Sequence record: PX930853.1
DNA from: a phage
Reading direction: 5' to 3' (one strand)
Length of the DNA: 51,150 bases
The position numbers and the translations under genes were made by a program. Of the stretch, positions 4,920 to 50,148 are shown one piece after another. The notes under the pieces are model-generated. The model did no database searches, was not told the DNA's origin, and saw only the letters and a list, made by a program, of their open reading frames with translations. Numbering within the stretch: position 1 is the stretch's first letter; each line of letters begins with the position of its first letter.

Positions 4920-5975
4920 TCATAGATACTGCCTGAATTGAGCACGAACCCAATCAGGAGTATCAAGATCAATTTCTGGTTGCCCGTTTGCATACGAAGG
5001 CCATTCATCTAACTGTTGGCAAACGTTGAACTTGTTGATCACGCTCATGTACTGGATACGACCGATCTTCAATTGCTCAATGTTCATGCGGAATGCGAGC
5101 GGCAAGTAAGGCTCTTTCTTCTCTTGAGCAAGCAATCTCACAATTACTGGCCTTTCCTCGTCTGGATACGCCTTTTTAAATAAATCATGCTGCAAAGCCA
5201 TTTTGAGATAATACCCGTGATTGTAAGCCAGGCGCTGGAAGTCAACCGGATTTGCGCTAACCGTTGTTTTATAGTCAGTGATAATCACAGCTTCTGGATA
5301 GATGACTTCTTCATAAATCGGTCGGCCTTTTTCGTCGTAACCGTTAATGATTGTGGCCTTTACATCCTTGTTTACGTCAACGTGATCAAGGCGCACTTTA
5401 ACTTTTACGCCATTGATGATCCCGAATATTGACATTTCACGCTGCGCGGTTGGGCTGTTCATGCAAGCGTTATGCTCCGGTATGGCCTCAAGTACGCGCC
5501 GCATCGCTACACAGGCATCATAATCTTTAGCGTCTATTAACTGCACTCCGTCCGCTGCGGCCTGGCATTCTGCCATCATTTCGATAAGCCACCACACATT
5601 GAGATCCTCGCCGCACTTGTACAGCATTTCCAGTAATTCAGGGTATTGTTTACCCGTCGTACCTTTCAGTCCAAAAGATTTCAGCTTTGATGCTAACGCC
5701 GTTTGACTAGTGATCAGATCTTTAAAATCATCCTGCGACGGTGCGCGGCGATATGTTTTTTCGAATAACTCCTTGCTTTCAAAATTGGTATGCGACTGCG
5801 TACCGAAAACAAGTGCCTTAGTTTCCTGGCGAGGCTTGTACTTCCAGTACGCCGGGCAAGTGCTGTAAATCTCCGCCAGGCTGGAACCGCTGACGTATTC
5901 AGCCGTCCACGCGTTAGGATCATGATAAAGCTCATTGCTCATTTCTTCGCTAGTATAGGCGTTAAAATCACTCAT
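4920..5975 (-). CDS. recombination exonuclease, PD-(D/E)XK type (RecE/exonuclease VIII-like), putative
   Basis: 351-aa ORF with GAGGAG RBS; D...ITDYKTT nuclease-like motif; first gene of exo-erf-ssb module. Confidence 0.6.
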   Translation of the reverse strand: MSDFNAYTSEEMSNELYHDPNAWTAEYVSGSSLAEIYSTCPAYWKYKPRQETKALVFGTQSHTNFESKELFEKTYRRAPSQDDFKDLITSQTALASKLKSFGLKGTTGKQYPELLEMLYKCGEDLNVWWLIEMMAECQAAADGVQLIDAKDYDACVAMRRVLEAIPEHNACMNSPTAQREMSIFGIINGVKVKVRLDHVDVNKDVKATIINGYDEKGRPIYEEVIYPEAVIITDYKTTVSANPVDFQRLAYNHGYYLKMALQHDLFKKAYPDEERPVIVRLLAQEKKEPYLPLAFRMNIEQLKIGRIQYMSVINKFNVCQQLDEWPSYANGQPEIDLDTPDWVRAQFRQYL

Positions 5976-24810: not shown

Positions 24811-26099
24811 TGATTGCTACCCTCGGTTGTTCCTGGCTCCGGCTCTACGTCCTGCTCAGGTAATTTAATGTTATTTCCGTCCTTTAGTTTAACGTTAGGC
24901 GCAATGGCTCGCAATGTGTCGCGCGCCTCCTCTGTATCCATGAATTGACCGTCAATAGCCTTGCTCAAAGAATCAATATTCTTGTTCAAGATCTCGGCTT
25001 GGTCCTTTTCACTGGGAACGCTTAACGGCGCAAACTGAATACTCCATTCTTCCTCTTGAATCAGGAACGGGATCAGAAATTCAAGGATTGGTTTGTATTC
25101 TTCCTTTCGCTTTCGATCGATCAGCTTGTAGAAGGTTTCAAGCGCCGTGTTTTGGCTCGCGCTAACACCGCCAACGTTCTTGTTTTTGAGGATGATTTCA
25201 TGGATTCCGGAAAGAGATACAATGCGATCCATCTTCTTTTCCAGGAATGAATCGACACCGGAAATATCAGAATTTAAAACATCATATTCCTCATCTTCCG
25301 CATCAATGCCGATCGCACGACCTACGCCACCCTCATCATCAACTTGAGCAAGGCGCAAACGTGCGGCGCTAACACCATCATCATCATCACAAAGATCAGC
25401 AAGACCTTTAGCCTTCCATACCGCCTGTTGCTTACGTCGCAACAATTGAGTTGCTAAGTTTTCGCAGTAGTTGTAATCACAAATAGCCTCAACCAATCGC
25501 TTATTCAGGATTGACTCACCCCAACCATCATTTGATTGACGTCGCTGATTTGGTAGCCGCTCACCGTCGATAATACAGACTCGCGAATAGTGAACCTGAT
25601 ATTCTGGCAAGTCCGCACCAGGTGAAATGGTGTAAATTAATGGCTCACCATATCGCACCTTGCGTGGATTAGTTTCTCGCTTTTCTACGCGAACCTGAAA
25701 GCGATCGTAAACGCGAACATCTTCAAGGATTGCACCAGGCGCTGCAGGTGACTTTAACGACCTGCCATCCTGAACGATTGCCACGATTGCCGCGCCACCA
25801 AAAAGACGCGACCAGCAAAGCGCATCAATGATTTTATCGTTTAGTCGCTTCTCATCCCACAAAGATCTAAAACTCTCCTCATCTTCCACGCCATCAATAT
25901 TAAATCCAGGTGTCACCATTTCTTCTGGAACAACGTCGATAATTCGTTTTGCTAGGCCGTCGAGAATGTAAAAATCAGCGTGCGTGGTGTATTCGAACCC
26001 TTGCATAAAGAAAGGCAACTCCACACGCCCATTGTCCTTGCTACCCTTGAAAATCTCGTTGTATCCATCGGCCTTAACTAGCCTTGTTTTTTCGCTCAT
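24807..26099 (-). CDS. portal protein
   Basis: ~430-aa ORF directly downstream of terminase large subunit; acidic C-terminus; GGAG RBS before ATG 26099. Confidence 0.8.
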   Translation of the reverse strand: MSEKTRLVKADGYNEIFKGSKDNGRVELPFFMQGFEYTTHADFYILDGLAKRIIDVVPEEMVTPGFNIDGVEDEESFRSLWDEKRLNDKIIDALCWSRLFGGAAIVAIVQDGRSLKSPAAPGAILEDVRVYDRFQVRVEKRETNPRKVRYGEPLIYTISPGADLPEYQVHYSRVCIIDGERLPNQRRQSNDGWGESILNKRLVEAICDYNYCENLATQLLRRKQQAVWKAKGLADLCDDDDGVSAARLRLAQVDDEGGVGRAIGIDAEDEEYDVLNSDISGVDSFLEKKMDRIVSLSGIHEIILKNKNVGGVSASQNTALETFYKLIDRKRKEEYKPILEFLIPFLIQEEEWSIQFAPLSVPSEKDQAEILNKNIDSLSKAIDGQFMDTEEARDTLRAIAPNVKLKDGNNIKLPEQDVEPEPGTTEGSNQ

Positions 26100-26169: not shown

Positions 26170-27738
26170 CTATTTATTGCGTAGACCTGCCAGCTTTTTC
26201 ATCCTTGCTACCGGATCATCTGCCAAATTCATTTCGACGTTAACAGCATCAACTATATTATCGACAATATCATCATGGGGATGAGAATCATCAAAAGTGA
26301 ATGCTGCAACCTCTGCTAGTATCTCAGGCAGCATGGGGTGATTTTCTGGCAGTGCCACACGTCCGGCCCTCATTACTGGCGCGGCGTCCATTGCTCGCGT
26401 CACCTTGTCATTGCTTCGCTGAACGGGATTTATATCAATCGGGATCTTCTTTTTGGCCCCCTGAATCAAACCCGTGCCGCTGGCCTTATCCTCAATGTGG
26501 ATACGTCGCAAGCTGCCACACTCCTTATTGCGCTTCCAGCACTGGTTAACGAAGGCAATAAAATTTAATTCAAGATCCGGCGCTTCCCACTTTCCGCGAA
26601 TGCCATCAATGAAGTAAACTCGATTCTTATACATCCCCCAATAACAAAAAACCGAATAGTCGTTAAGCTCTCCGGCCTTCTGCGCGGTATCTCCAGTAAT
26701 AAATGTGTATTCAAAGCGATCCGGTTTTGGTAGTGCGCACTTTTCGCCGCTGCCGTAATACTGGAACCACTCTGTTTTAAACACGTTCCCGCCAAGCGCG
26801 ATTGGTTGCTGTTGGTATTGGCTGGCGAACGTGTAAGGATCTGCATTGCGCAATGCAAGCAACTCCTCCGCGCTTTCCTTCGCAGGCCAAAATGAATAAT
26901 GAGCGACGCCATCTATCATCACTGGCTTACTTGACAGCACATCACGATCAAATTCAGGCTTCAACCAATCAGGAAGCGTTTCGCGGTATTCTTTCGTAAC
27001 CAGCGCCGGAATGCTCACGACTTTAAACTCAATACCACCCATCCCGCCATTAAGCATGAACCAGGTGGAATCATTAACGTGTAGTCGCTGTTGCACCATA
27101 ACAATTGGCGTTGTGTCTTTCATTCGACGCGATCGCACTGTGTTTTTTAACCGCATATGAATAGCCTCGCGCTTGACCTTAGAAAGCATATCATCCGGCT
27201 TGTCTGGATCGTCAAGAACCAGCATACCAGTAAAACCATCGTCCATATAGCCGCCACGCAAACCTGTTACCTGGCCGCCAATAGAACGTGAGTTAACTTG
27301 CAATTTAACCTTGCCGCCTTCGGTGACTATCAGATCTTTAGCGCTCGCCTTTGCCAGTTTTCCTGGCCATAGCTCTTGCCACTCATGAGAACCAATAATC
27401 TCCTTTATCCGGTTGCTGTTTTGCTGGACAAGGCCATCACTAAACGAAAGGTTAAGATTTCTCACCTTCCGGCTTTTCAATGACGCGTAGGGTGACATGT
27501 GGATCGAGAAAATCTCAGTCTTGCCGCTACCTGGAGTAATGTTGAAAATCACATTCCGCGACTCTCCATTGATGATCTTCTCTACCTCACTGCACAATAA
27601 GCTAAAATGCCAGTTGCTCTGGAATTTTTGCCCCTGCAATAATTGGAACCAGATTCTGATCATCTTTTCGAATGAATGCTCACTGATTTCTTTAATGGCT
27701 CGCTTTTGCGCAGCCGTCAAATCTTCCCATATGATCAT
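26170..27738 (-). CDS. terminase large subunit
   Basis: 522 aa; Walker A-like PGSGKTE, nuclease-type C-terminal acidic residues; start overlaps small-subunit stop. Confidence 0.85.
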   Translation of the reverse strand: MIIWEDLTAAQKRAIKEISEHSFEKMIRIWFQLLQGQKFQSNWHFSLLCSEVEKIINGESRNVIFNITPGSGKTEIFSIHMSPYASLKSRKVRNLNLSFSDGLVQQNSNRIKEIIGSHEWQELWPGKLAKASAKDLIVTEGGKVKLQVNSRSIGGQVTGLRGGYMDDGFTGMLVLDDPDKPDDMLSKVKREAIHMRLKNTVRSRRMKDTTPIVMVQQRLHVNDSTWFMLNGGMGGIEFKVVSIPALVTKEYRETLPDWLKPEFDRDVLSSKPVMIDGVAHYSFWPAKESAEELLALRNADPYTFASQYQQQPIALGGNVFKTEWFQYYGSGEKCALPKPDRFEYTFITGDTAQKAGELNDYSVFCYWGMYKNRVYFIDGIRGKWEAPDLELNFIAFVNQCWKRNKECGSLRRIHIEDKASGTGLIQGAKKKIPIDINPVQRSNDKVTRAMDAAPVMRAGRVALPENHPMLPEILAEVAAFTFDDSHPHDDIVDNIVDAVNVEMNLADDPVARMKKLAGLRNK

Positions 27739-28265
27739 TAAAGTTGCTCCAGAATATCAATCACAGCCTCTTTCACCTCATCGGCAGTTACTGCGTCAAT
27801 GCTTGCATTAGCTGCCGCGCTCGCTTCAACGCTCACTGTTGCTGGCTTCTCTACTCCGATCTCTTTACCGATAAATCCAGAATTAATCATGTTATTTGCC
27901 GCAAGCTGGAATTTTTGCTCGTAAATTACTTTATCAACAAACTCCATCACATCGCAGAATCCAGGCTCTTTACGCCATTTGCTTACGGCAGCCTCAGTAA
28001 CGCCGAGATACAAGCTGAATCCGTTAACCGTGAAAACGCGAGGCTTGTAAACTCTGCTCTCGTACACGTCACCATGAAAGGAAGCAGTTTCAGCCGCCTG
28101 GATGTGATTCTCTTCGGCCCAAGTGAAATAGCGGATCGCCATATCAAAAACCTGTTCCGGCGTGTACTTGTGGCGGTTATTTAGCGTGACAATATCGCCA
28201 TAAGTTTTATTGTATAACTCTTTGAAATTTAATGCCTTTACAGCAGGCTCAACATTTTTAGCCAT
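27738..28265 (-). CDS. terminase small subunit, putative
   Basis: 175-aa ORF with AAAGGAGG RBS immediately upstream of large subunit. Confidence 0.6.
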   Translation of the reverse strand: MAKNVEPAVKALNFKELYNKTYGDIVTLNNRHKYTPEQVFDMAIRYFTWAEENHIQAAETASFHGDVYESRVYKPRVFTVNGFSLYLGVTEAAVSKWRKEPGFCDVMEFVDKVIYEQKFQLAANNMINSGFIGKEIGVEKPATVSVEASAAANASIDAVTADEVKEAVIDILEQL

Positions 28266-34122: not shown

Positions 34123-34201
34123 GGTGCTTTCTCCTGATTGGTTTAACTGGGCGACGCCGTGCCGCCCTATGTGATTTATTATGCCTGGTTATCGTTTTTG
34201 A

Positions 34202-34223
34202 GTTTTAACAAAAAGTGCTATTT
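34202..34223 (-). promoter_or_regulatory. conserved intergenic box (minus orientation)
   Basis: Reverse complement AAATAGCACTTTTTGTTAAAAC ~80 bp upstream of 33229..34122 start. Confidence 0.4.
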
Positions 34224-34407
34224 AGAATTTCACTTCTTCCACAAGCTCAACCATCTTGTAACCAAGACGATAAGAGTCACCGAACAACAAGATCCCCATA
34301 AATTCATCGTGGCTTATTGACTCTTTGCCAACCGTTCTAAGCTCTCCGTTGTGAATCACAGTATCGCCGATCTTGATTTCTGATTTATGGACTAATTTCG
34401 TTTTCAT
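34222..34407 (-). CDS. hypothetical early protein (61 aa)
   Basis: ORF track. Confidence 0.45.
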   Translation of the reverse strand: MKTKLVHKSEIKIGDTVIHNGELRTVGKESISHDEFMGILLFGDSYRLGYKMVELVEEVKF

Positions 34408-34422
34408 TTATTCACCTGCTAA

Positions 34423-34608
34423 TTAAAAGAAAGCTACATAGTTTGCAATGCCTTTGGCGTCGTCGTTTGGCATTGCTTTTACAGCCAGGTCATAACCTGC
34501 CTCTACCTTCTGCTTTGCTGCTTCTTCGTTGTAGCCCCAGATAACCAGGATTTTAACTACGTTTTCTTTGTTCAGGACTTTAAGGTCTTTGGTGATGCGA
34601 CGTGCCAT
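34423..34608 (-). CDS. hypothetical early protein (61 aa)
   Basis: ORF track; ~55 bp downstream of conserved box. Confidence 0.5.
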   Translation of the reverse strand: MARRITKDLKVLNKENVVKILVIWGYNEEAAKQKVEAGYDLAVKAMPNDDAKGIANYVAFF

Positions 34609-34664: not shown

Positions 34665-34686
34665 GTTTTAACAAAAAGTGCTATTT
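34665..34686 (-). promoter_or_regulatory. conserved intergenic box (minus orientation)
   Basis: Reverse complement AAATAGCACTTTTTGTTAAAAC followed by GCCAGGC-GCAAA-GCCTGGC dyad and CATAAT. Confidence 0.4.
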
Positions 34687-35414: not shown

Positions 35415-35614
35415 TTCTGCCTCCTGGTTGTTAGGTGTGGGCATTATCAATAATGCTATTTAATGTGTCAACTGTTTTTTCTTGTTCCAGCGTGTTTTAT
35501 CAATTTTATATGGTGGCACAATAACAATATGGGCGTTATTTTTCCTTATAAATCAATGTTATCATTGCTTGTTATCGAAGTTTTCTCGCGGAAAGTGCCA
35601 TATAGATATATATG

Positions 35615-35775
35615 CCCCTACATACCCATACACACATATAGATACACAAAAACTATATACCCCCACCAAATACCACAATAACCAAGATAACAAAAGAGAA
35701 TATATAGATACATATAAATAAATAATCCTTATTTTTCAATGTATTATATAGGTATTGTTTGTTATTTTTTGTTAT
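35615..35775. repeat. AC/AT-rich non-coding repeat, copy B (homologous to 6165..6335)
   Basis: Same ordered sequence blocks as copy A; both copies lie in divergent intergenic regions. Confidence 0.6.
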
Positions 35776-35889
35776 CGTATTTTGCGGAAGGTCAACAAAA
35801 GAACAGGTGGGAACGGAACATAACAACCACTGACAGCCAGGCGGAAAAGTGAGGCAAGAGGGGAAGGTTTCACTATCTCCCCTGCAATC

Positions 35890-35985
35890 AATGATTAAAC
35901 GTGATTACTTTCTCATCAAATTTGCAAATGCAATCATCATTTTGACGTGATTTGATTACGAATGATTACTTTTGATTATTTCTAT
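35890..35985. promoter_or_regulatory. phased GATTA(C) repeats and 10-bp palindrome ATTTGCAAAT (candidate operator/origin-like element)
   Basis: Five GATTA(C) units at ~10-11 bp spacing in two clusters; perfect palindrome near 35920. Confidence 0.3.
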
Positions 35986-36010
35986 CACAGTCCTGGCGCT
36001 AACCGTCAAA

Positions 36011-36029
36011 TGGCACTTTTTGTTAAAAC
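36011..36029 (+). promoter_or_regulatory. conserved intergenic box (TGGCAC variant) ~58 bp upstream of first rightward early gene
   Basis: TGGCACTTTTTGTTAAAAC. Confidence 0.4.
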
Positions 36030-36087
36030 TCAGGCCGTCTGATCGGGTACATTGCACACATCAAAACGAACCGCTCAGGAGATAGCA

Positions 36088-36360
36088 ATGAACATCAGCA
36101 AAACCACTTTCAACTTCGCTAAGCGTCACGGTCTGGATCTGACTGTTGAAGATTTTGGCGATGTTCTGCAACTCTGCATTTGTGAAGCAGATAACGATTG
36201 CGAGTGGCTTTGCTCTTATCGTATCAACTACGATTGCTTGACCTGGCACGGCAATATCTATCTGCCGCAAGAAGTGAAAGAAGAATTGCCAGCGACTATC
36301 AACAACGAGGTTTTCTTGCGTCAGGTGCTGAAATTTATCAGTGAGGAGATCAAGAAGTAA
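36088..36360 (+). CDS. hypothetical early protein (90 aa)
   Basis: AGGAG RBS then ATG 36088 (track ORF starts at upstream TTG). Confidence 0.5.
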   Translation: MNISKTTFNFAKRHGLDLTVEDFGDVLQLCICEADNDCEWLCSYRINYDCLTWHGNIYLPQEVKEELPATINNEVFLRQVLKFISEEIKK

Positions 36361-36626
36361 TGGCGGTGATTACCGAAAATGATTTGGATCTGGCGGAGGC
36401 ATTTTGCAGGGCCGCCAGGGCTAACCTGGATGTGGCTACTAAATTTCTTCCGGCGCGACCACTCTTTTCGTGTGCGCCCGTGAATAAACCGACTCGCGTA
36501 ATGATCGTGATTGAAGGTGATGGCCTGTACGCTGAAAAGACGTTCCACATCAGCAACATTAAGGGCCGTGCTGATTTTATCAATGATGTTTGCTTATTGC
36601 AGGAGAAGAAAAAATGTTGGATGTGA
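36360..36626 (+). CDS. hypothetical early protein, paralog pair member 1
   Basis: C-terminal GRADFINDVCLLQEKKK similar to GAQSNFINEVCDLYGRI of next gene. Confidence 0.45.
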   Translation: MAVITENDLDLAEAFCRAARANLDVATKFLPARPLFSCAPVNKPTRVMIVIEGDGLYAEKTFHISNIKGRADFINDVCLLQEKKKCWM

Positions 36627-36824: not shown

Positions 36825-37037
36825 ATGTTCAAGAAATTGTTATGGCTGTACCGCTCCAGGCGCAACAAGGGATATTGCAGGGGCACGGAAAGGAATCTTG
36901 ACCGCGCTTATAAATACTGCCTGTTATTGCTCGCCAGGATGCCGGAAAACAGGAAGGAATATATTGCACTGCGGGAAATAACAATGCGGATATATAGTTA
37001 CCGCAATAAACTATACGTCTTTAAATCTTTACGATAA
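36825..37037 (+). CDS. hypothetical basic protein (start uncertain)
   Basis: ORF track 36735..37037 trimmed to first ATG after upstream stop; weak RBS. Confidence 0.3.
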   Translation: MFKKLLWLYRSRRNKGYCRGTERNLDRAYKYCLLLLARMPENRKEYIALREITMRIYSYRNKLYVFKSLR

Positions 37038-37049
37038 GGAGTAATAACC

Positions 37050-37313
37050 ATGAAAATTAATGCACCTATTCCAGTTAAGCGCAAAGCACGTTTGCTAAAC
37101 AACGGATGTTACGCCATGCGGCCCGCATTTAAGGATCGCACATTTCCGGTTATCGTTAACGTGTCTCATGTAAGCCGTAGCGGAAACCTGGTATTCGTTA
37201 AAGGTGAAGATCTGACGGCGCTTGGATTCTATGGCGGTGTTCACGGCGAACCGCTCGGATTCTGGCTTGTGGATCCGCTAACTGGAGAGCGTGAAATCGA
37301 ATTCCTGGACTAA
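37050..37313 (+). CDS. hypothetical early protein (87 aa)
   Basis: AAGGAG RBS. Confidence 0.5.
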   Translation: MKINAPIPVKRKARLLNNGCYAMRPAFKDRTFPVIVNVSHVSRSGNLVFVKGEDLTALGFYGGVHGEPLGFWLVDPLTGEREIEFLD

Positions 37314-37333
37314 ATAGCACTTTTTGTTAAAAA
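37313..37333 (+). promoter_or_regulatory. conserved intergenic box
   Basis: AATAGCACTTTTTGTTAAAAC overlapping upstream TAA stop; ~55 bp before ATG 37389. Confidence 0.4.
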
Positions 37334-39330: not shown

Positions 39331-40006
39331 AGTTGCTTACTCAATGTTTGATGGATCTGGAATCATGCTGCTTGAATATGCGAAGGCTGGCTATCAATGC
39401 TATTGCTTTAACGCTGATGAAGGCAATCACGGCGAATATTTCATCAAGATGAAACATGAAAATCTGCATTATGTGAATATGTGGATTGATGAAAATTTCA
39501 TTGAAAGAATCAGTAAGATTGGTATTCCAAAACCAGATATTGTATTTGGATTTCCAGACTGCACCATGTTTGCCCAATCAGGAATCAAGCACGTGCGAAG
39601 CGATGATGATATTCAGGTTGCGCTCAAAAATGCAATCATGGTTGAAACTGTCGGGAATCATTTCGGTGTCCCCTGGATGGCTGAGAATCCTGTAGGCCGA
39701 CTATCAACGCTATGGCGAAAGCCTGATTTTTATTTCAATCCTCGCGATTTTGGTAACTACCTGGACGAATCCGATGGATCTTTTCACCCCAAGATGCCGC
39801 TAAAGGATGGCTACACAAAAAGGACTGCTATCTGGTGCGGCAACGGATTTACAGAACCCGAACGCAAGCCGTTATCCAATGATGATGGCGTAATGTTCTT
39901 TTGGGGTTGGAAGTTTTTAGGCGGTAAGTCTGCCAGAACAAAGCAACTACGCTCCCTCACTCCGCGCGGCTTTGCTCGCGCCGTCTTTGAGTCAAACTCA
40001 AAATAG
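39320..40006 (+). CDS. putative SAM-dependent DNA methyltransferase (C5-cytosine-like motifs, atypical)
   Basis: FDGSG (motif I-like), FGFPDC (PC-like motif IV with inserted Asp), AENPVG (ENV-like); start overlaps 3' end of HNH gene. Confidence 0.4.
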   Translation: MGNKVAYSMFDGSGIMLLEYAKAGYQCYCFNADEGNHGEYFIKMKHENLHYVNMWIDENFIERISKIGIPKPDIVFGFPDCTMFAQSGIKHVRSDDDIQVALKNAIMVETVGNHFGVPWMAENPVGRLSTLWRKPDFYFNPRDFGNYLDESDGSFHPKMPLKDGYTKRTAIWCGNGFTEPERKPLSNDDGVMFFWGWKFLGGKSARTKQLRSLTPRGFARAVFESNSK

Positions 40007-40022
40007 CACTTTTTGTTAAAAG
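40002..40022 (+). promoter_or_regulatory. conserved intergenic box
   Basis: AATAGCACTTTTTGTTAAAAG then CCAGGT-GTAAAAA-ACCTGG dyad then CATAAT; ~50 bp before ATG 40076. Confidence 0.4.
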
Positions 40023-40462: not shown

Positions 40463-40680
40463 TAAACAGTGAAAACCGTTACAAAGTAACGCATTCTACC
40501 ACAAAGACTTTCAAGCCTGGCGATATAGTCAGGCCCATCAAAAAAACGGCGGTAGGTTGGCTGATTGGTTTTTCATATCATAAGGCGCTTTACTTTACGT
40601 TTAAGGATGGGATTACAGGAGAATGCTACAGCGACCGCCAGCCTGATCGACTTCTGGTTGCAATAGAGCGGATCAAATAG
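40459..40680 (+). CDS. hypothetical early protein (73 aa)
   Basis: ORF track; overlapping stop-start. Confidence 0.45.
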   Translation: MINSENRYKVTHSTTKTFKPGDIVRPIKKTAVGWLIGFSYHKALYFTFKDGITGECYSDRQPDRLLVAIERIK

Positions 40681-40696
40681 CACTTTTTGACAAAAC
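40676..40696 (+). promoter_or_regulatory. conserved intergenic box (TTGACA variant)
   Basis: AATAGCACTTTTTGACAAAAC then GGGCCGT...ACGGCCC dyad containing TAAAAT. Confidence 0.4.
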
Positions 40697-42721: not shown

Positions 42722-42837
42722 GGATTTTATTCATGCTTTACTTACGCTACTTTATTCAGATATGCGCGCTTTTAGCACCACTGAACATGTTTTATGCAAT
42801 GATGATGGTGTATTACTGGTTACGGTAAAGCGTATGG

Positions 42838-42858
42838 AATAGCATTTTTTGTTAAAAC
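42838..42858 (+). promoter_or_regulatory. conserved intergenic box
   Basis: AATAGCATTTTTTGTTAAAAC then CCCGGC...GTCGGG dyad then TATATT. Confidence 0.4.
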
Positions 42859-49671: not shown

Positions 49672-50148
49672 ATGAAAGATGCACGAATTGCAGTGTCTAC
49701 GGGTGAGATCGACAAGCGCACTATTAACGGTAACAACGGAACGCGACGAGGTAAAGACAAAAAGCCACGAAAACACAGAACCGGATTTCTTATCCTGCGA
49801 GATGAGGTAAAAGCAAGCCTGAAATCTCGCCTTGACATTCTGATCGAGTATTACGGCGGCGTTCCTGCTATGGCTCGACGTCTGCGCGTATCTCAGCAAG
49901 TTGTTAACCAATGGCGAAAGCGTGGTATGATTTCAGCCGCTGGAGCACAAAAGGTGCATAACGACTACAAATATAATGGATGCAAAGGATACCGCGCCTC
50001 GTTTTGTCGTCCAGATCTGCGGTTTGATTCTAACGGCAAGCCTCTTACTACCCGTTGCGACAAATACGAAATGTTGCGCGTAGTCAAAAATTCAGACTAC
50101 GAACCAGGCGGACGATTCTACAAAGGTGATAACAGCACGAATAGCTAA
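49672..50148 (+). CDS. putative DNA-binding protein with Cro/YdaS-like helix-turn-helix
   Basis: GGVPAMARRLRVSQQVVNQWRKRGMIS HTH-like segment; basic N-terminus. Confidence 0.45.
   Translation: MKDARIAVSTGEIDKRTINGNNGTRRGKDKKPRKHRTGFLILRDEVKASLKSRLDILIEYYGGVPAMARRLRVSQQVVNQWRKRGMISAAGAQKVHNDYKYNGCKGYRASFCRPDLRFDSNGKPLTTRCDKYEMLRVVKNSDYEPGGRFYKGDNSTNS

What the first reader, a model, noticed from the sequence alone, without database searches (positions are those of the whole stretch)
35890..35985. Phased GATTA(C) repeats and a perfect palindrome in the 35.4-36.1 kb hub
Between repeat copy B and the first rightward box lie five GATTA(C) units at ~10-11-bp spacing (near 35893, 35903, 35954, 35964, 35975) and a perfect 10-bp palindrome ATTTGCAAAT near 35920. 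Helically phased short repeats plus a palindrome are typical of operator or iteron arrays. This is a candidate origin or master control site for early transcription, possibly bound by the Cro-like HTH protein or the HTH-phosphoesterase.
Basis: partly seen in the sequence, partly recalled or inferred. Interest (0 to 1): 0.5.

Follow-up and report, generated by a model that had tools for sequence, protein, structure and literature searches.

The report
Probable phage DNA packaging start site
Five same-strand TGATTA repeats, spaced one DNA turn apart in the main non-coding hub of this T1-like coliphage, are real and conserved, and they most likely mark where the phage's terminase starts cutting and packaging DNA (the pac site), not an operator or a replication origin.

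Summary
The window is a T1-like coliphage (Drexlerviridae, Warwickvirus). TGATTA occurs on the + strand at 35892, 35902, 35953, 35963 and 35973 (spacing 10/51/10/10). This never arose in 20,000 local simulations and is the densest TGATT/AATCA cluster in the genome. The palindrome ATTTGCAAAT exists but is not significant, and 18 of 18 relatives read ATTTGCAAAG.

The array lies 29-116 bp upstream of the first rightward copy of the known 21-nt T1/TLS box, in the 673-bp divergent hub. It is not dyad-symmetric, overlaps no promoter hexamers, has no DnaA or IHF consensus nearby, and is absent from the other box promoters.

Genome ends reported for four relatives all fall in the homologous interval, 85-149 bp upstream of that box: T1 record base 1, TLS restriction-mapped pac, and MSK and UDF157lw by PhageTerm. 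That corresponds to window positions about 35860-35925. In T1 and TLS the densest TGATT/AATCA cluster straddles that end.

Array type and small-terminase (TerS) type co-occur in 61/61 Warwickvirus records. An alternative pair occurs in about 63/64 Hanrivervirus records, although neighbouring genes are exchanged between the two genera.

Best reading (about 0.45): this is the TerS recognition part of pac. An upstream regulatory site for the early promoter remains a serious rival. No experiment exists for this genus.

The parts
35892..35897 (+). TGATTA unit 1 (TGATTAA)
   Evidence: Invariant in 19/19 clade sequences.
35902..35908 (+). TGATTAC unit 2
   Evidence: Reads TGATTGC in 5 of 19 relatives.
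35920..35929 (.). Palindrome ATTTGCAAAT, lying between the two repeat clusters
   Evidence: The 10-mer is unique to the window; the 8-mer TTTGCAAA is conserved in 19/19. Not significant on its own.
35883..35906 (+). First copy of a 24-nt imperfect direct repeat (TGCAATCA...ACGTGATT). The second copy is at 35929-35952.
   Evidence: family D3: 75% identity, 46-bp spacing.
35929..35952 (+). Second copy of the 24-nt repeat. It contains AATCA (35932) and TGATTT (35948).
35953..35959 (+). TGATTAC unit 3
   Evidence: One of 19 relatives has CGATTAC.
35963..35969 (+). TGATTAC unit 4
   Evidence: Invariant in 19/19.
35973..35979 (+). TGATTAT unit 5
   Evidence: Invariant in 19/19. A TGATTAA sits at the same distance from the box in the type-B (Hanrivervirus) allele.
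35860..35925 (.). Projected zone of the first packaging cut. This is inferred, not observed in this phage.
   Evidence: Distance from reported end to first box: MSK 149 bp, UDF157lw 143 bp, TLS 120 bp, T1 85 bp. Measured from the window box at 36009, these give 35860, 35866, 35889 and 35924. The MAFFT alignment places the MSK and UDF157lw ends at about 35863/64 and 35870/71.
35868..35882 (+). C/T-rich element TTTCACTATCTCCCC. A counterpart aligns in the same columns in nine diverse T1-like hubs, just to the right of the PhageTerm ends of MSK and UDF157lw.
36008..36029 (+). First rightward 21-nt box AAATGGCACTTTTTGTTAAAAC, with a -10-like TACATT at 36048-36053. This is the neighbouring promoter-like element, not part of the array.
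   Evidence: The same box is described for TLS and T1 in PMC11447400.
27741..28265 (-). Small terminase subunit (TerS), the proposed binding protein
   Evidence: Pfam PF16677 GP3_package, 44 bits against a cut-off of 29.4. At least 95% identical in exactly the 61 records that carry this array.
26173..27738 (-). Large terminase subunit (TerL), the nuclease/ATPase that would make the cut

Best explanation
The TGATTA(C) array is the recognition part of this phage's pac site, the place where headful DNA packaging starts.

**Proposed mechanism**
- The P22-gp3-type small terminase (TerS, 27741-28265) forms a ring of DNA-binding motifs spaced about one DNA turn apart.
- The ring engages the same-face TGATTA units, in clusters of 2 + 3, and wraps this roughly 100-bp segment.
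- This positions TerL to make the first cut at or just left of the array, at about 35860-35925.
- Packaging then runs leftward in window coordinates, through the small minus-strand genes towards terS, terL and the structural genes. It produces terminally redundant, partly permuted genomes, as in T1.

**Shown**
- The array is non-random, unique in the genome and conserved.
- It sits in the interval homologous to the reported ends of four relatives.
- Array type and TerS type co-occur.

**Inferred**
- TerS binds the array.
- The position of the cut.
- The direction of packaging.
For: 1. **Reported ends of relatives map here.** T1 RefSeq base 1 begins the annotated 2.8-kb terminal repeat. It lies in the homologous hub, 85 bp upstream of the first box and 162 bp upstream of the ST1 start codon. 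TLS pac was restriction-mapped about 5,882 bp from a HindIII site; that site is at 5876 in the record, so base 1 is 120 bp upstream of the box. The MSK PhageTerm start at 36,862 (p 1.6e-9) is 149 bp upstream. The UDF157lw record, re-organised by PhageTerm, starts 143 bp upstream. The SU57 paper states that pac lies in this untranslated region in T1-like phages.
2. **The motif marks those ends.** On circularised genomes, the densest TGATT/AATCA cluster straddles base 1 in T1 (5 copies) and in TLS (6 copies). In the window the maximum (8, next best 4) is this array. Across 12 diverse hubs the motif is about 3.3-fold enriched in the 200 bp upstream of the first box: 48 observed against 14.6 expected.
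3. **The array is unique.** It is absent from the other six box promoters, as a pac site should be.
4. **Coupling with TerS.** Array A occurs in 61 GenBank records, the same 61 whose TerS is at least 95% identical. Array B occurs in 64 records and TerS-B in 63. Between the window and haarsle, TerS is 70% identical while the adjacent TerL is 92%. The array is replaced while the promoter and first gene next to it are 98% identical and genes at 34222-34608 are 97-100% identical. TerS differences concentrate in a putative HTH helix.
5. **The block is constrained.** Diversity is 0.022, against 0.041-0.051 at third codon positions.
6. **Precedent.** In small-terminase rings, neighbouring HTH motifs are about one DNA turn apart, and pac DNA with direct repeats wraps around the ring (PMC4737164).
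Against: - No terminus data exist for this phage or for any Warwickvirus.
- The fine position of TLS base 1 was chosen by its authors from an AGATTT motif, which is partly circular with a GATT-rich cluster.
- The precision of T1 base 1 is unknown, and its cluster margin is narrow (5 against 4).
- UDF157lw and haarsle show no TGATT enrichment at the hub.
- MSK, T1 and TLS carry the motif mainly as AATCA, the opposite orientation to the array here.
- The two PhageTerm ends project about 20-30 bp to the left of the array, not inside it.
- The TerS/array co-occurrence is confounded by genus. The major capsid protein is also at least 95% identical in about 62 records.
- P22-type TerS proteins normally have pac inside their own gene. 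No match to the P22 pac sequence above chance was found.
- Position immediately upstream of a promoter is also what a regulatory site would show.
Confidence: 0.45

Rival explanations
1. The array is an upstream cis-regulatory site for the first rightward early promoter (the box promoter at 36008-36053). A phage- or host-encoded protein binds cooperatively to the same-face direct repeats and activates or represses that operon. Response regulators, for example, bind 10-11-bp direct repeats.
For: - The units lie 29-116 bp upstream of the 21-nt box, roughly -87 to -168 from the likely transcription start.
- Direct repeats at 10-bp spacing are typical of cooperative activator or response-regulator sites (established knowledge).
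- The block is conserved above the synonymous-site level.
- Different genera carry different repeat sets at the same position, as expected of a specificity module. The type-B allele has TTATTCC x2 / GGAATA x2.
Against: - The array is not found at any other box promoter.
- It does not overlap any promoter hexamers.
- No candidate regulator is encoded nearby. The Cro-like protein's Pfam hits are below threshold, and its divergence from haarsle is only genome-average (80%).
- This reading does not explain why reported genome ends of four relatives map here.
Confidence: 0.25
2. The array is an iteron-type replication origin, or part of one.
For: - The hub is the cumulative GC-skew minimum.
- It contains AT-rich repeated DNA 150-400 bp to the left.
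- No origin is known for T1-like phages (PMC11447400).
Against: - The GC-skew switch coincides with the switch in transcription direction, so it is uninformative.
- No DnaA-box or IHF-core consensus occurs in the hub.
- The repeat core is 6-7 bp, whereas classical iterons are 17-22 bp.
- No initiator gene lies adjacent. The primase and helicases are 5-15 kb away.
- The more iteron-like ATAACA repeats are elsewhere in the hub.
Confidence: 0.07
3. There is no specific protein site. The repeats are a remnant of local tandem duplication, or a generic bent, AT-rich upstream region bound by nucleoid proteins.
For: - A 24-nt imperfect duplication (35883 and 35929) and 21-nt repeat families show the segment grew by duplication.
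- A wedge-model curvature estimate reaches the 96th-98th percentile at 35920-35940.
- Substitutions do not clearly avoid the hexamers: 2 of 30 variable columns inside them against 9 of 71 outside.
Against: - The whole block evolves at about half the synonymous rate.
- All five units are present in 19 of 19 sequences.
- Predicted curvature is not extreme.
- A related phased TGAYNAY array persists in a divergent relative, L012, despite sequence turnover.
Confidence: 0.1

Closest known systems
pac region of coliphages T1 and TLS (Drexlerviridae)
   Same: - Same position in the genome: the divergent untranslated hub, 85-120 bp upstream of the first 21-nt box on the ST1 / gp86 side.
- Both have a local TGATT/AATCA cluster that is the densest in their genome.
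- Same P22-gp3-type TerS family.
   Different: - There is no nucleotide homology to the window's array.
- In T1 and TLS the motif is mostly in the AATCA orientation, at 5-30-bp spacing rather than 10-bp phased TGATTAC.
- Published proposals for their pac sequence were other motifs: ATATA repeats for T1 and AGATTT for TLS.
- No TerS binding site has been defined experimentally in any of them.
Bacteriophage P1 pac site
   Same: As recalled from the literature (not tested here), P1 pac has short hexamer repeats (TGATCA/G) in two clusters (4 + 3) that flank the cleavage region and are bound by the small packaging subunit. The array here has a 2 + 3 arrangement of TGATTA around a roughly 45-bp centre. 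The type-B allele contains TGATCA and TGATCG.
   Different: - The P1 hexamers contain GATC and are regulated by Dam methylation. The window's units contain no GATC.
- P1 PacA is unrelated to gp3-type TerS.
- P1 pac lies inside pacA.
SPP1/SF6 pac (pacL-pacC-pacR)
   Same: - Direct repeat boxes lie on the non-encapsidated side (pacL) next to the cut.
- A TerS ring with HTH motifs about one helical turn apart wraps roughly 100 bp of bendable DNA.
- The site overlaps promoters (PMC4737164).
   Different: - The TerS family is different.
- The SPP1 site lies at the terS gene itself, whereas here it is 7.6 kb from terS.
- SPP1 recognition was found to be largely sequence-independent.
P22/Sf6 pac
   Same: The TerS belongs to the same Pfam family, GP3_package, and uses headful packaging.
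   Different: - P22 pac is a single 22-bp site inside gene 3.
- No P22-pac-like sequence above chance occurs in the window: 64 matches against 64.4 expected.
Lambdoid operators (OR/OL) and plasmid or lambda iterons
   Same: They are multiple short repeats in a divergent control region.
   Different: - Operators are dyad-symmetric and overlap promoter hexamers.
- Iterons are 17-22 bp and lie beside or within an initiator gene.
- Neither set of features is met here.

Membership tests
pac site of a headful-packaging phage | The phage encodes a headful-type terminase (TerS + TerL). | tested here: met
   TerS matches PF16677 GP3_package at 44 bits, above the 29.4 cut-off. TerL is 65-92% identical to T1 and haarsle TerL. 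T1-like phages are documented headful packagers.
pac site of a headful-packaging phage | The site coincides with the physical end produced by the first packaging cut. | tested here: inconclusive
   There are no virion-end data for this phage. By positional homology, the ends reported for T1, TLS, MSK and UDF157lw project to window 35860-35925, at the left edge and left half of the array.
pac site of a headful-packaging phage | The site occurs once in the genome. | tested here: met
   There is only one such cluster: 8 TGATT/AATCA in 100 bp, next best 4. TGATTAC also occurs singly at 36367 and 40231 (+ strand) and at 25479, 15905 and 14238 (- strand).
pac site of a headful-packaging phage | Site specificity co-varies with TerS. 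| tested here: inconclusive
   Co-occurrence is perfect for type A (61 records = 61 records) and near-perfect for type B (64 against 63). TerS is unusually divergent next to a conserved TerL. The result is confounded by genus.
pac site of a headful-packaging phage | The site is bound by TerS and is sufficient in cis for packaging or transduction. | not testable with these tools
   This needs EMSA or footprinting and plasmid-transduction assays.
Cro/CI-type operator array | Dyad-symmetric half-sites. | tested here: not met
   All five units are on one strand as direct repeats. The only dyads are AATCA-A-TGATT at 35886-35896, which is unique to this genome, and the non-conserved 10-bp palindrome.
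Cro/CI-type operator array | Sites overlap the -35/-10 of the regulated promoter, and the repressor gene is adjacent. | tested here: not met
   No sigma-70-like promoter was found in 35880-35990. The box starts at 36008. The nearest HTH gene, with weak Cro/YdaS hits below threshold, is at 49672.
Iteron-type replication origin | At least three 17-22-bp iterons next to an AT-rich unwinding element and an initiator gene, often with DnaA or IHF sites. | tested here: not met
   The repeat core is 6-7 bp with a 10-bp period. No TTWTNCACA or WATCAANNNNTTR occurs in the hub. No initiator gene is adjacent. AT-rich DNA is present 150-400 bp away.
21-nt intergenic repeat of T1-like phages (aaATAGCACnnnTTGnTAAAA) | A match to the consensus about 76 nt upstream of a start codon, in the direction of transcription. 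| tested here: not met
   The TGATTA array is a separate element. The box itself is at 36008-36029, 79 nt upstream of the ATG at 36088.

The most novel reading that the evidence does not exclude
The array is a dual-purpose element in which the packaging signal and the control of the first rightward early promoter are physically coupled. Late in infection, the TerS ring assembling on the phased TGATTA units, 29-116 bp upstream of the 21-nt box, would shut down or redirect that early operon. Conversely, early transcription through or next to the site would keep pac unavailable until late. The outcome would be a timing switch between gene expression and packaging, built from one repeat array. The specificity pair (array type + TerS recognition helix) would be swapped as a unit between genera.
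Probability: 0.12. Interest if true: 0.55.

Novelty: new member of a known kind. Interest (0 to 1): 0.35.

Why it matters
T1-like phages are common laboratory and industrial contaminants, generalized transducers and phage-therapy candidates. Their pac signal has only been located to a region. The sequences proposed so far (ATATA repeats, AGATTT) are guesses.

A defined repeat array paired with a TerS type would make three things directly testable:
- packaging specificity;
- transduction potential, through pseudo-pac sites in host genomes;
- engineering of packaging-competent plasmids.

It would also give correct genome start coordinates for about 60 Warwickvirus records. If the array is instead a regulatory site, it marks the control point of the first early operon in a family whose transcription programme is essentially unknown.

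Tried and rejected
- **Literature search for the heptamer TGATTAC**. It returned only primers and unrelated hits.
- **Host-factor consensus matching.** There is no DnaA box or IHF core in the hub. A resemblance of the reverse strand (GTAAT-N5-GTAAT) to the CpxR box GTAAA-N5-GTAAA, and to ArcA or OmpR direct repeats, was noted from memory only. It could not be tested with these tools, so it was dropped as a claim.
- **P22 pac similarity**. AAGATTTATCTG with up to 3 mismatches gave 64 matches against 64.4 expected.
- **Intrinsic curvature**. A wedge model with parameters recalled from memory gave only the 96th-98th percentile at 35920-35940, which is not enough to explain the array.
- **Structured RNA**. 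Rfam gave only sub-threshold noise.
- **Hidden small ORF.** No ORF of at least 40 aa is present, and a 1-bp indel inside the array separates the window from all relatives.
- **Sigma-70 promoter inside the array**. None was found. TTGACG at 35942 has no acceptable -10.
- **Record ends of other GenBank phages as extra evidence** (haarsle, XY3, ityhuna). Rejected as not independent, because many records are simply re-oriented to match T1.
- **Metagenome and IMG/VR scans for more diverse type-A arrays**. They gave only 13 loci, all of the two known alleles.
- **Hexamers against spacers within the clade.** Too few substitutions to decide: 2/30 against 9/71 variable columns.
- **The T1 genome paper and the Rtp paper** are not in the library.

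Full report
**What the window is.** The 701 bp around the finding match 65 GenBank phages at 86-98% identity. The best matches are Escherichia phages MikeNSara and PeterMerian (Drexlerviridae; Tempevirinae; Warwickvirus), which are T1-like siphoviruses.

A simple ORF map, compared with T1 and haarsle, shows that 35416-36087 is the one large divergent non-coding hub:
- To the left, minus-strand small genes run 7 kb to terS (27741-28265), terL (26173-27738) and the structural genes.
- To the right, plus-strand small genes lead to a methylase and a helicase.

**Checking the observation.** TGATTA is on the + strand at 35892, 35902, 35953, 35963 and 35973, with spacing 10/51/10/10. The units read TGATTAA, TGATTAC, TGATTAC, TGATTAC and TGATTAT.

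The clustering is far beyond chance:
- 0 of 20,000 composition-matched simulations of the hub reached five TGATTA in 90 bp.
- No 6-mer reached five copies in 2,000 local simulations, or in 30 whole-genome simulations.
- Counting both orientations of the core (TGATT/AATCA), the array is the genome-wide maximum: 8 in 100 bp, next best 4.

The palindrome ATTTGCAAAT (35920-35929) is present, but 10-bp palindromes are common. There are 26 in the window, and they are in fact under-represented against about 60 expected. All 18 relatives examined read ATTTGCAAAG. It carries little weight on its own.

**Immediate context.**
It recurs on the + strand at 37312, 40001, 40675 and 42837, and on the minus strand near 34200 and 34670.
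- Across diverse relatives the box is followed about 18 nt later by an extended -10-like GGTAYAWT and a conserved leader.
- This is the published, functionally unexplained 21-nt repeat of TLS and T1, found about 76 nt upstream of start codons (PMC11447400).
- The array therefore sits 29-116 bp upstream of the first rightward box promoter.
- A good leftward sigma-70 promoter (TTGACA-17-GATAAT) lies far away, at 35471..35443. No promoter-like site lies in the array.
- None of the other box promoters has TGATTA units.

**Conservation.**
- In 19 distinct sequences of the clade, all five units are present. Unit 2 reads TGATTGC in five sequences, and unit 3 reads CGATTAC in one.
- The window alone lacks one T between the two clusters, giving a 51-bp gap where the relatives have 52 bp.
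- Nucleotide diversity of 35885-35985 is 0.022, and 0.019 for the 55 bp upstream. Third codon positions of the two downstream genes give 0.041-0.051, and positions 1+2 give 0.006-0.014.
- The block is therefore constrained. The data cannot separate hexamers from spacers.

With an identical promoter and a 96-99% identical first gene, other phages (Hanrivervirus: haarsle, 2019SD1 and several metagenome contigs) carry a different 'type B' module in the same place. It reads TTAATCAcyTGATTAA, TTGATCAA, then TTATTCC x2 ... GGAATA x2. TGATTAA units sit at the same distances from the box as units 2 and 5 of the window. A more divergent contig (L012) keeps a phased TGAYNAY array: TGATTAC, TGACGAC, TGACAAC, TGACGAT, TGATTAT.

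**The key lead: reported genome ends.**
- *T1.* The RefSeq record annotates bases 1-2800 as the terminal repeat. The record junction falls inside the homologous hub, 85 bp upstream of the first box and 162 bp upstream of the ST1 start codon, among AATCA/TGATT repeats.
- *TLS* (same subfamily as the window). Its authors mapped pac about 5,882 bp from a HindIII site. The record has HindIII at 5876, so base 1 is that end. It lies 120 bp upstream of the first box, and the sequence there is AGATTTTGTGATTGAAATTGATTTGATTTGATTAGATTTG.
- *MSK* (Braunvirinae). PhageTerm gave a forward start at 36,862 (p 1.6e-9). This is in the hub, 149 bp upstream of the first box.
- *UDF157lw* (Rogunavirinae). The deposited sequence was re-organised according to PhageTerm, and its junction is 143 bp upstream of the first box.
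- *SU57.* The paper states that the end lies in this untranslated region, and that pac is in the corresponding region of T1 and other T1-like phages.

Measured from the window's box at 36009, these four distances give 35860, 35866, 35889 and 35924. A MAFFT alignment of nine diverse hubs aligns a C/T-rich element (window TTTCACTATCTCCCC, 35868-35882) in the same columns in all nine. It puts the two PhageTerm ends just to its left, at about 35863/64 and 35870/71.

On circularised genomes, the densest TGATT/AATCA cluster straddles base 1 in both T1 and TLS.

Many other records simply copy T1's orientation, so I do not count their ends.

**Coupling with the small terminase.**
- TerS is a P22-gp3-type protein (PF16677).
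- Exactly 61 GenBank records contain the type-A array, and they are the same 61 whose TerS is at least 95% identical. No record falls between 80% and 95%.
- The type-B array is in 64 records, and its TerS type is in 63.
- Between the window and haarsle, TerS is 70% identical and the adjacent TerL 92%. The differences concentrate in a putative recognition helix, GVTEAAVSKW against GLSASVLEKW.
- Genes between the array and terS (34222-34608) are 97-100% identical across the two genera, and the gene next to the array is 98% identical. Exchange between genera therefore occurs around both loci without uncoupling them.
- The caveat is that the two states correspond to two genera. The capsid gene shows a similar roughly 62-record set.

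**Most likely mechanism.** The array is the TerS recognition part of pac.
- A ring-shaped TerS presents DNA-binding motifs about one helical turn apart. DNA with phased repeats wraps around such a ring (PMC4737164).
- The 2 + 3 same-face TGATTA units would serve as that landing pad.
- TerL would cut at or just left of it, at about 35860-35925.
- Packaging would run leftward, the direction of T1 base 1 onward and of MSK 'forward' towards terS.
- Binding, cut position and direction are inferences. I put this reading at about 0.45.

**Rivals.**
- *Upstream regulatory site for the first early promoter (0.25).* It fits the position and the direct-repeat geometry. It does not explain the mapped ends, and no candidate regulator is linked to it.
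- *Replication origin (0.07).* There are no DnaA or IHF consensus sites in the hub, the repeat cores are short, and no initiator gene is adjacent.
- *Duplication remnant or generic bent DNA (0.10).* The block-level constraint argues against it, and predicted curvature is only moderate.
- A combined packaging and promoter-control role is possible and is given as the novel case.

**Weak points.**
- There are no terminus data for any Warwickvirus.
- The fine position of TLS base 1 was chosen from an AGATTT motif.
- T1's cluster margin is small.
- UDF157lw and haarsle are not TGATT-enriched at the hub.
- Motif orientation differs between genera.
- The PhageTerm ends project to the left edge of the array, not its centre.

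**Comparison with known systems.**
- At the level of the region, 'pac lies in this hub' is already in the literature for T1-like phages.
- The specific phased TGATTA array, and its pairing with a TerS type, has not been described in the papers I could read.
- The published pac proposals are different motifs.
- In kind, it resembles the repeat-flanked pac sites of P1 (from memory) and SPP1. I therefore class it as a new member of a known kind, of moderate interest.

Noticed in passing
window 36008-36029, 37312-37333, 40001-40022, 40675-40696, 42837-42858 (+); about 34202-34223 and 34665-34686 (-): The 21-nt box AAATAGCACTTTTTGTTAAAAC is always followed about 18 nt later by an extended -10-like GGTAYAWT and a conserved CATCGAAACGA leader, with no -35 hexamer. 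It is the published but unexplained TLS/T1 repeat. The fixed geometry suggests a promoter class that depends on an upstream element or a phage factor.
   Followed up: partly
window 35521-35600 and 35714-35792: Two roughly 70-bp repeat copies lie in the left half of the hub. Read on the minus strand, copy A contains a degenerate box ATATGGCACTTTCCGCGAGAAAAC (35578-35601) followed 18 nt later by TAACAT. It may be a leftward box-type promoter.
   Followed up: no
window 35795-35830, 35558-35577, 35676-35692, 35755-35777; L010 upstream region: (G/A)ATAACA units occur at 9-10-bp spacing. There are four perfect copies in type-B relatives (AATAACACGCATAACAGCGATAACAGAAGATAACAG), degenerate ones here, and further TGTTAT/ATAACA pairs in the hub. 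They look more like iterons than the TGATTA array does, and could be a separate protein-binding or origin element.
   Followed up: no
whole window: Perfect 10-bp palindromes are under-represented: 26 observed against 60 +/- 7 expected. This is consistent with avoidance of restriction sites.
   Followed up: no
window 35600-35608, 35636-35644, 35702-35710: ATATAGATA occurs three times inside a TATA-rich stretch. T1 has a comparable TATATA-rich stretch in its hub. According to the MSK paper (citing Wietzorrek 2006), this was once proposed as the T1 pac signal.
   Followed up: partly
window about 35500 and 35471..35443 (-): One of the strongest predicted curvature peaks in the genome (99.9th percentile, wedge model) lies just upstream of the near-consensus leftward sigma-70 promoter TTGACA-17-GATAAT.
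   Followed up: no
L068 (tunus) 1094-1396 and L059 (XY3) 222-524: Two relatives carry an extra 303-bp gene, with its own copy of the box, inserted between the array plus first box and the usual first rightward gene. The array can therefore head a different first gene.
   Followed up: no
window 27741-28265 (-) against 26173-27738 (-): TerS is a divergence hot spot next to a conserved TerL: 70% against 92% identity to haarsle. The nearest outgroup records are at most 80% identical for TerS and 90-95% for TerL.
   Followed up: yes
window 35859-35883: A short hairpin (AGGGGA / TCCCCT, 13-nt loop) overlaps the conserved C/T-rich element. Three relatives carry stem-breaking or wobble changes, so the hairpin itself does not appear to be selected.
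   Followed up: partly
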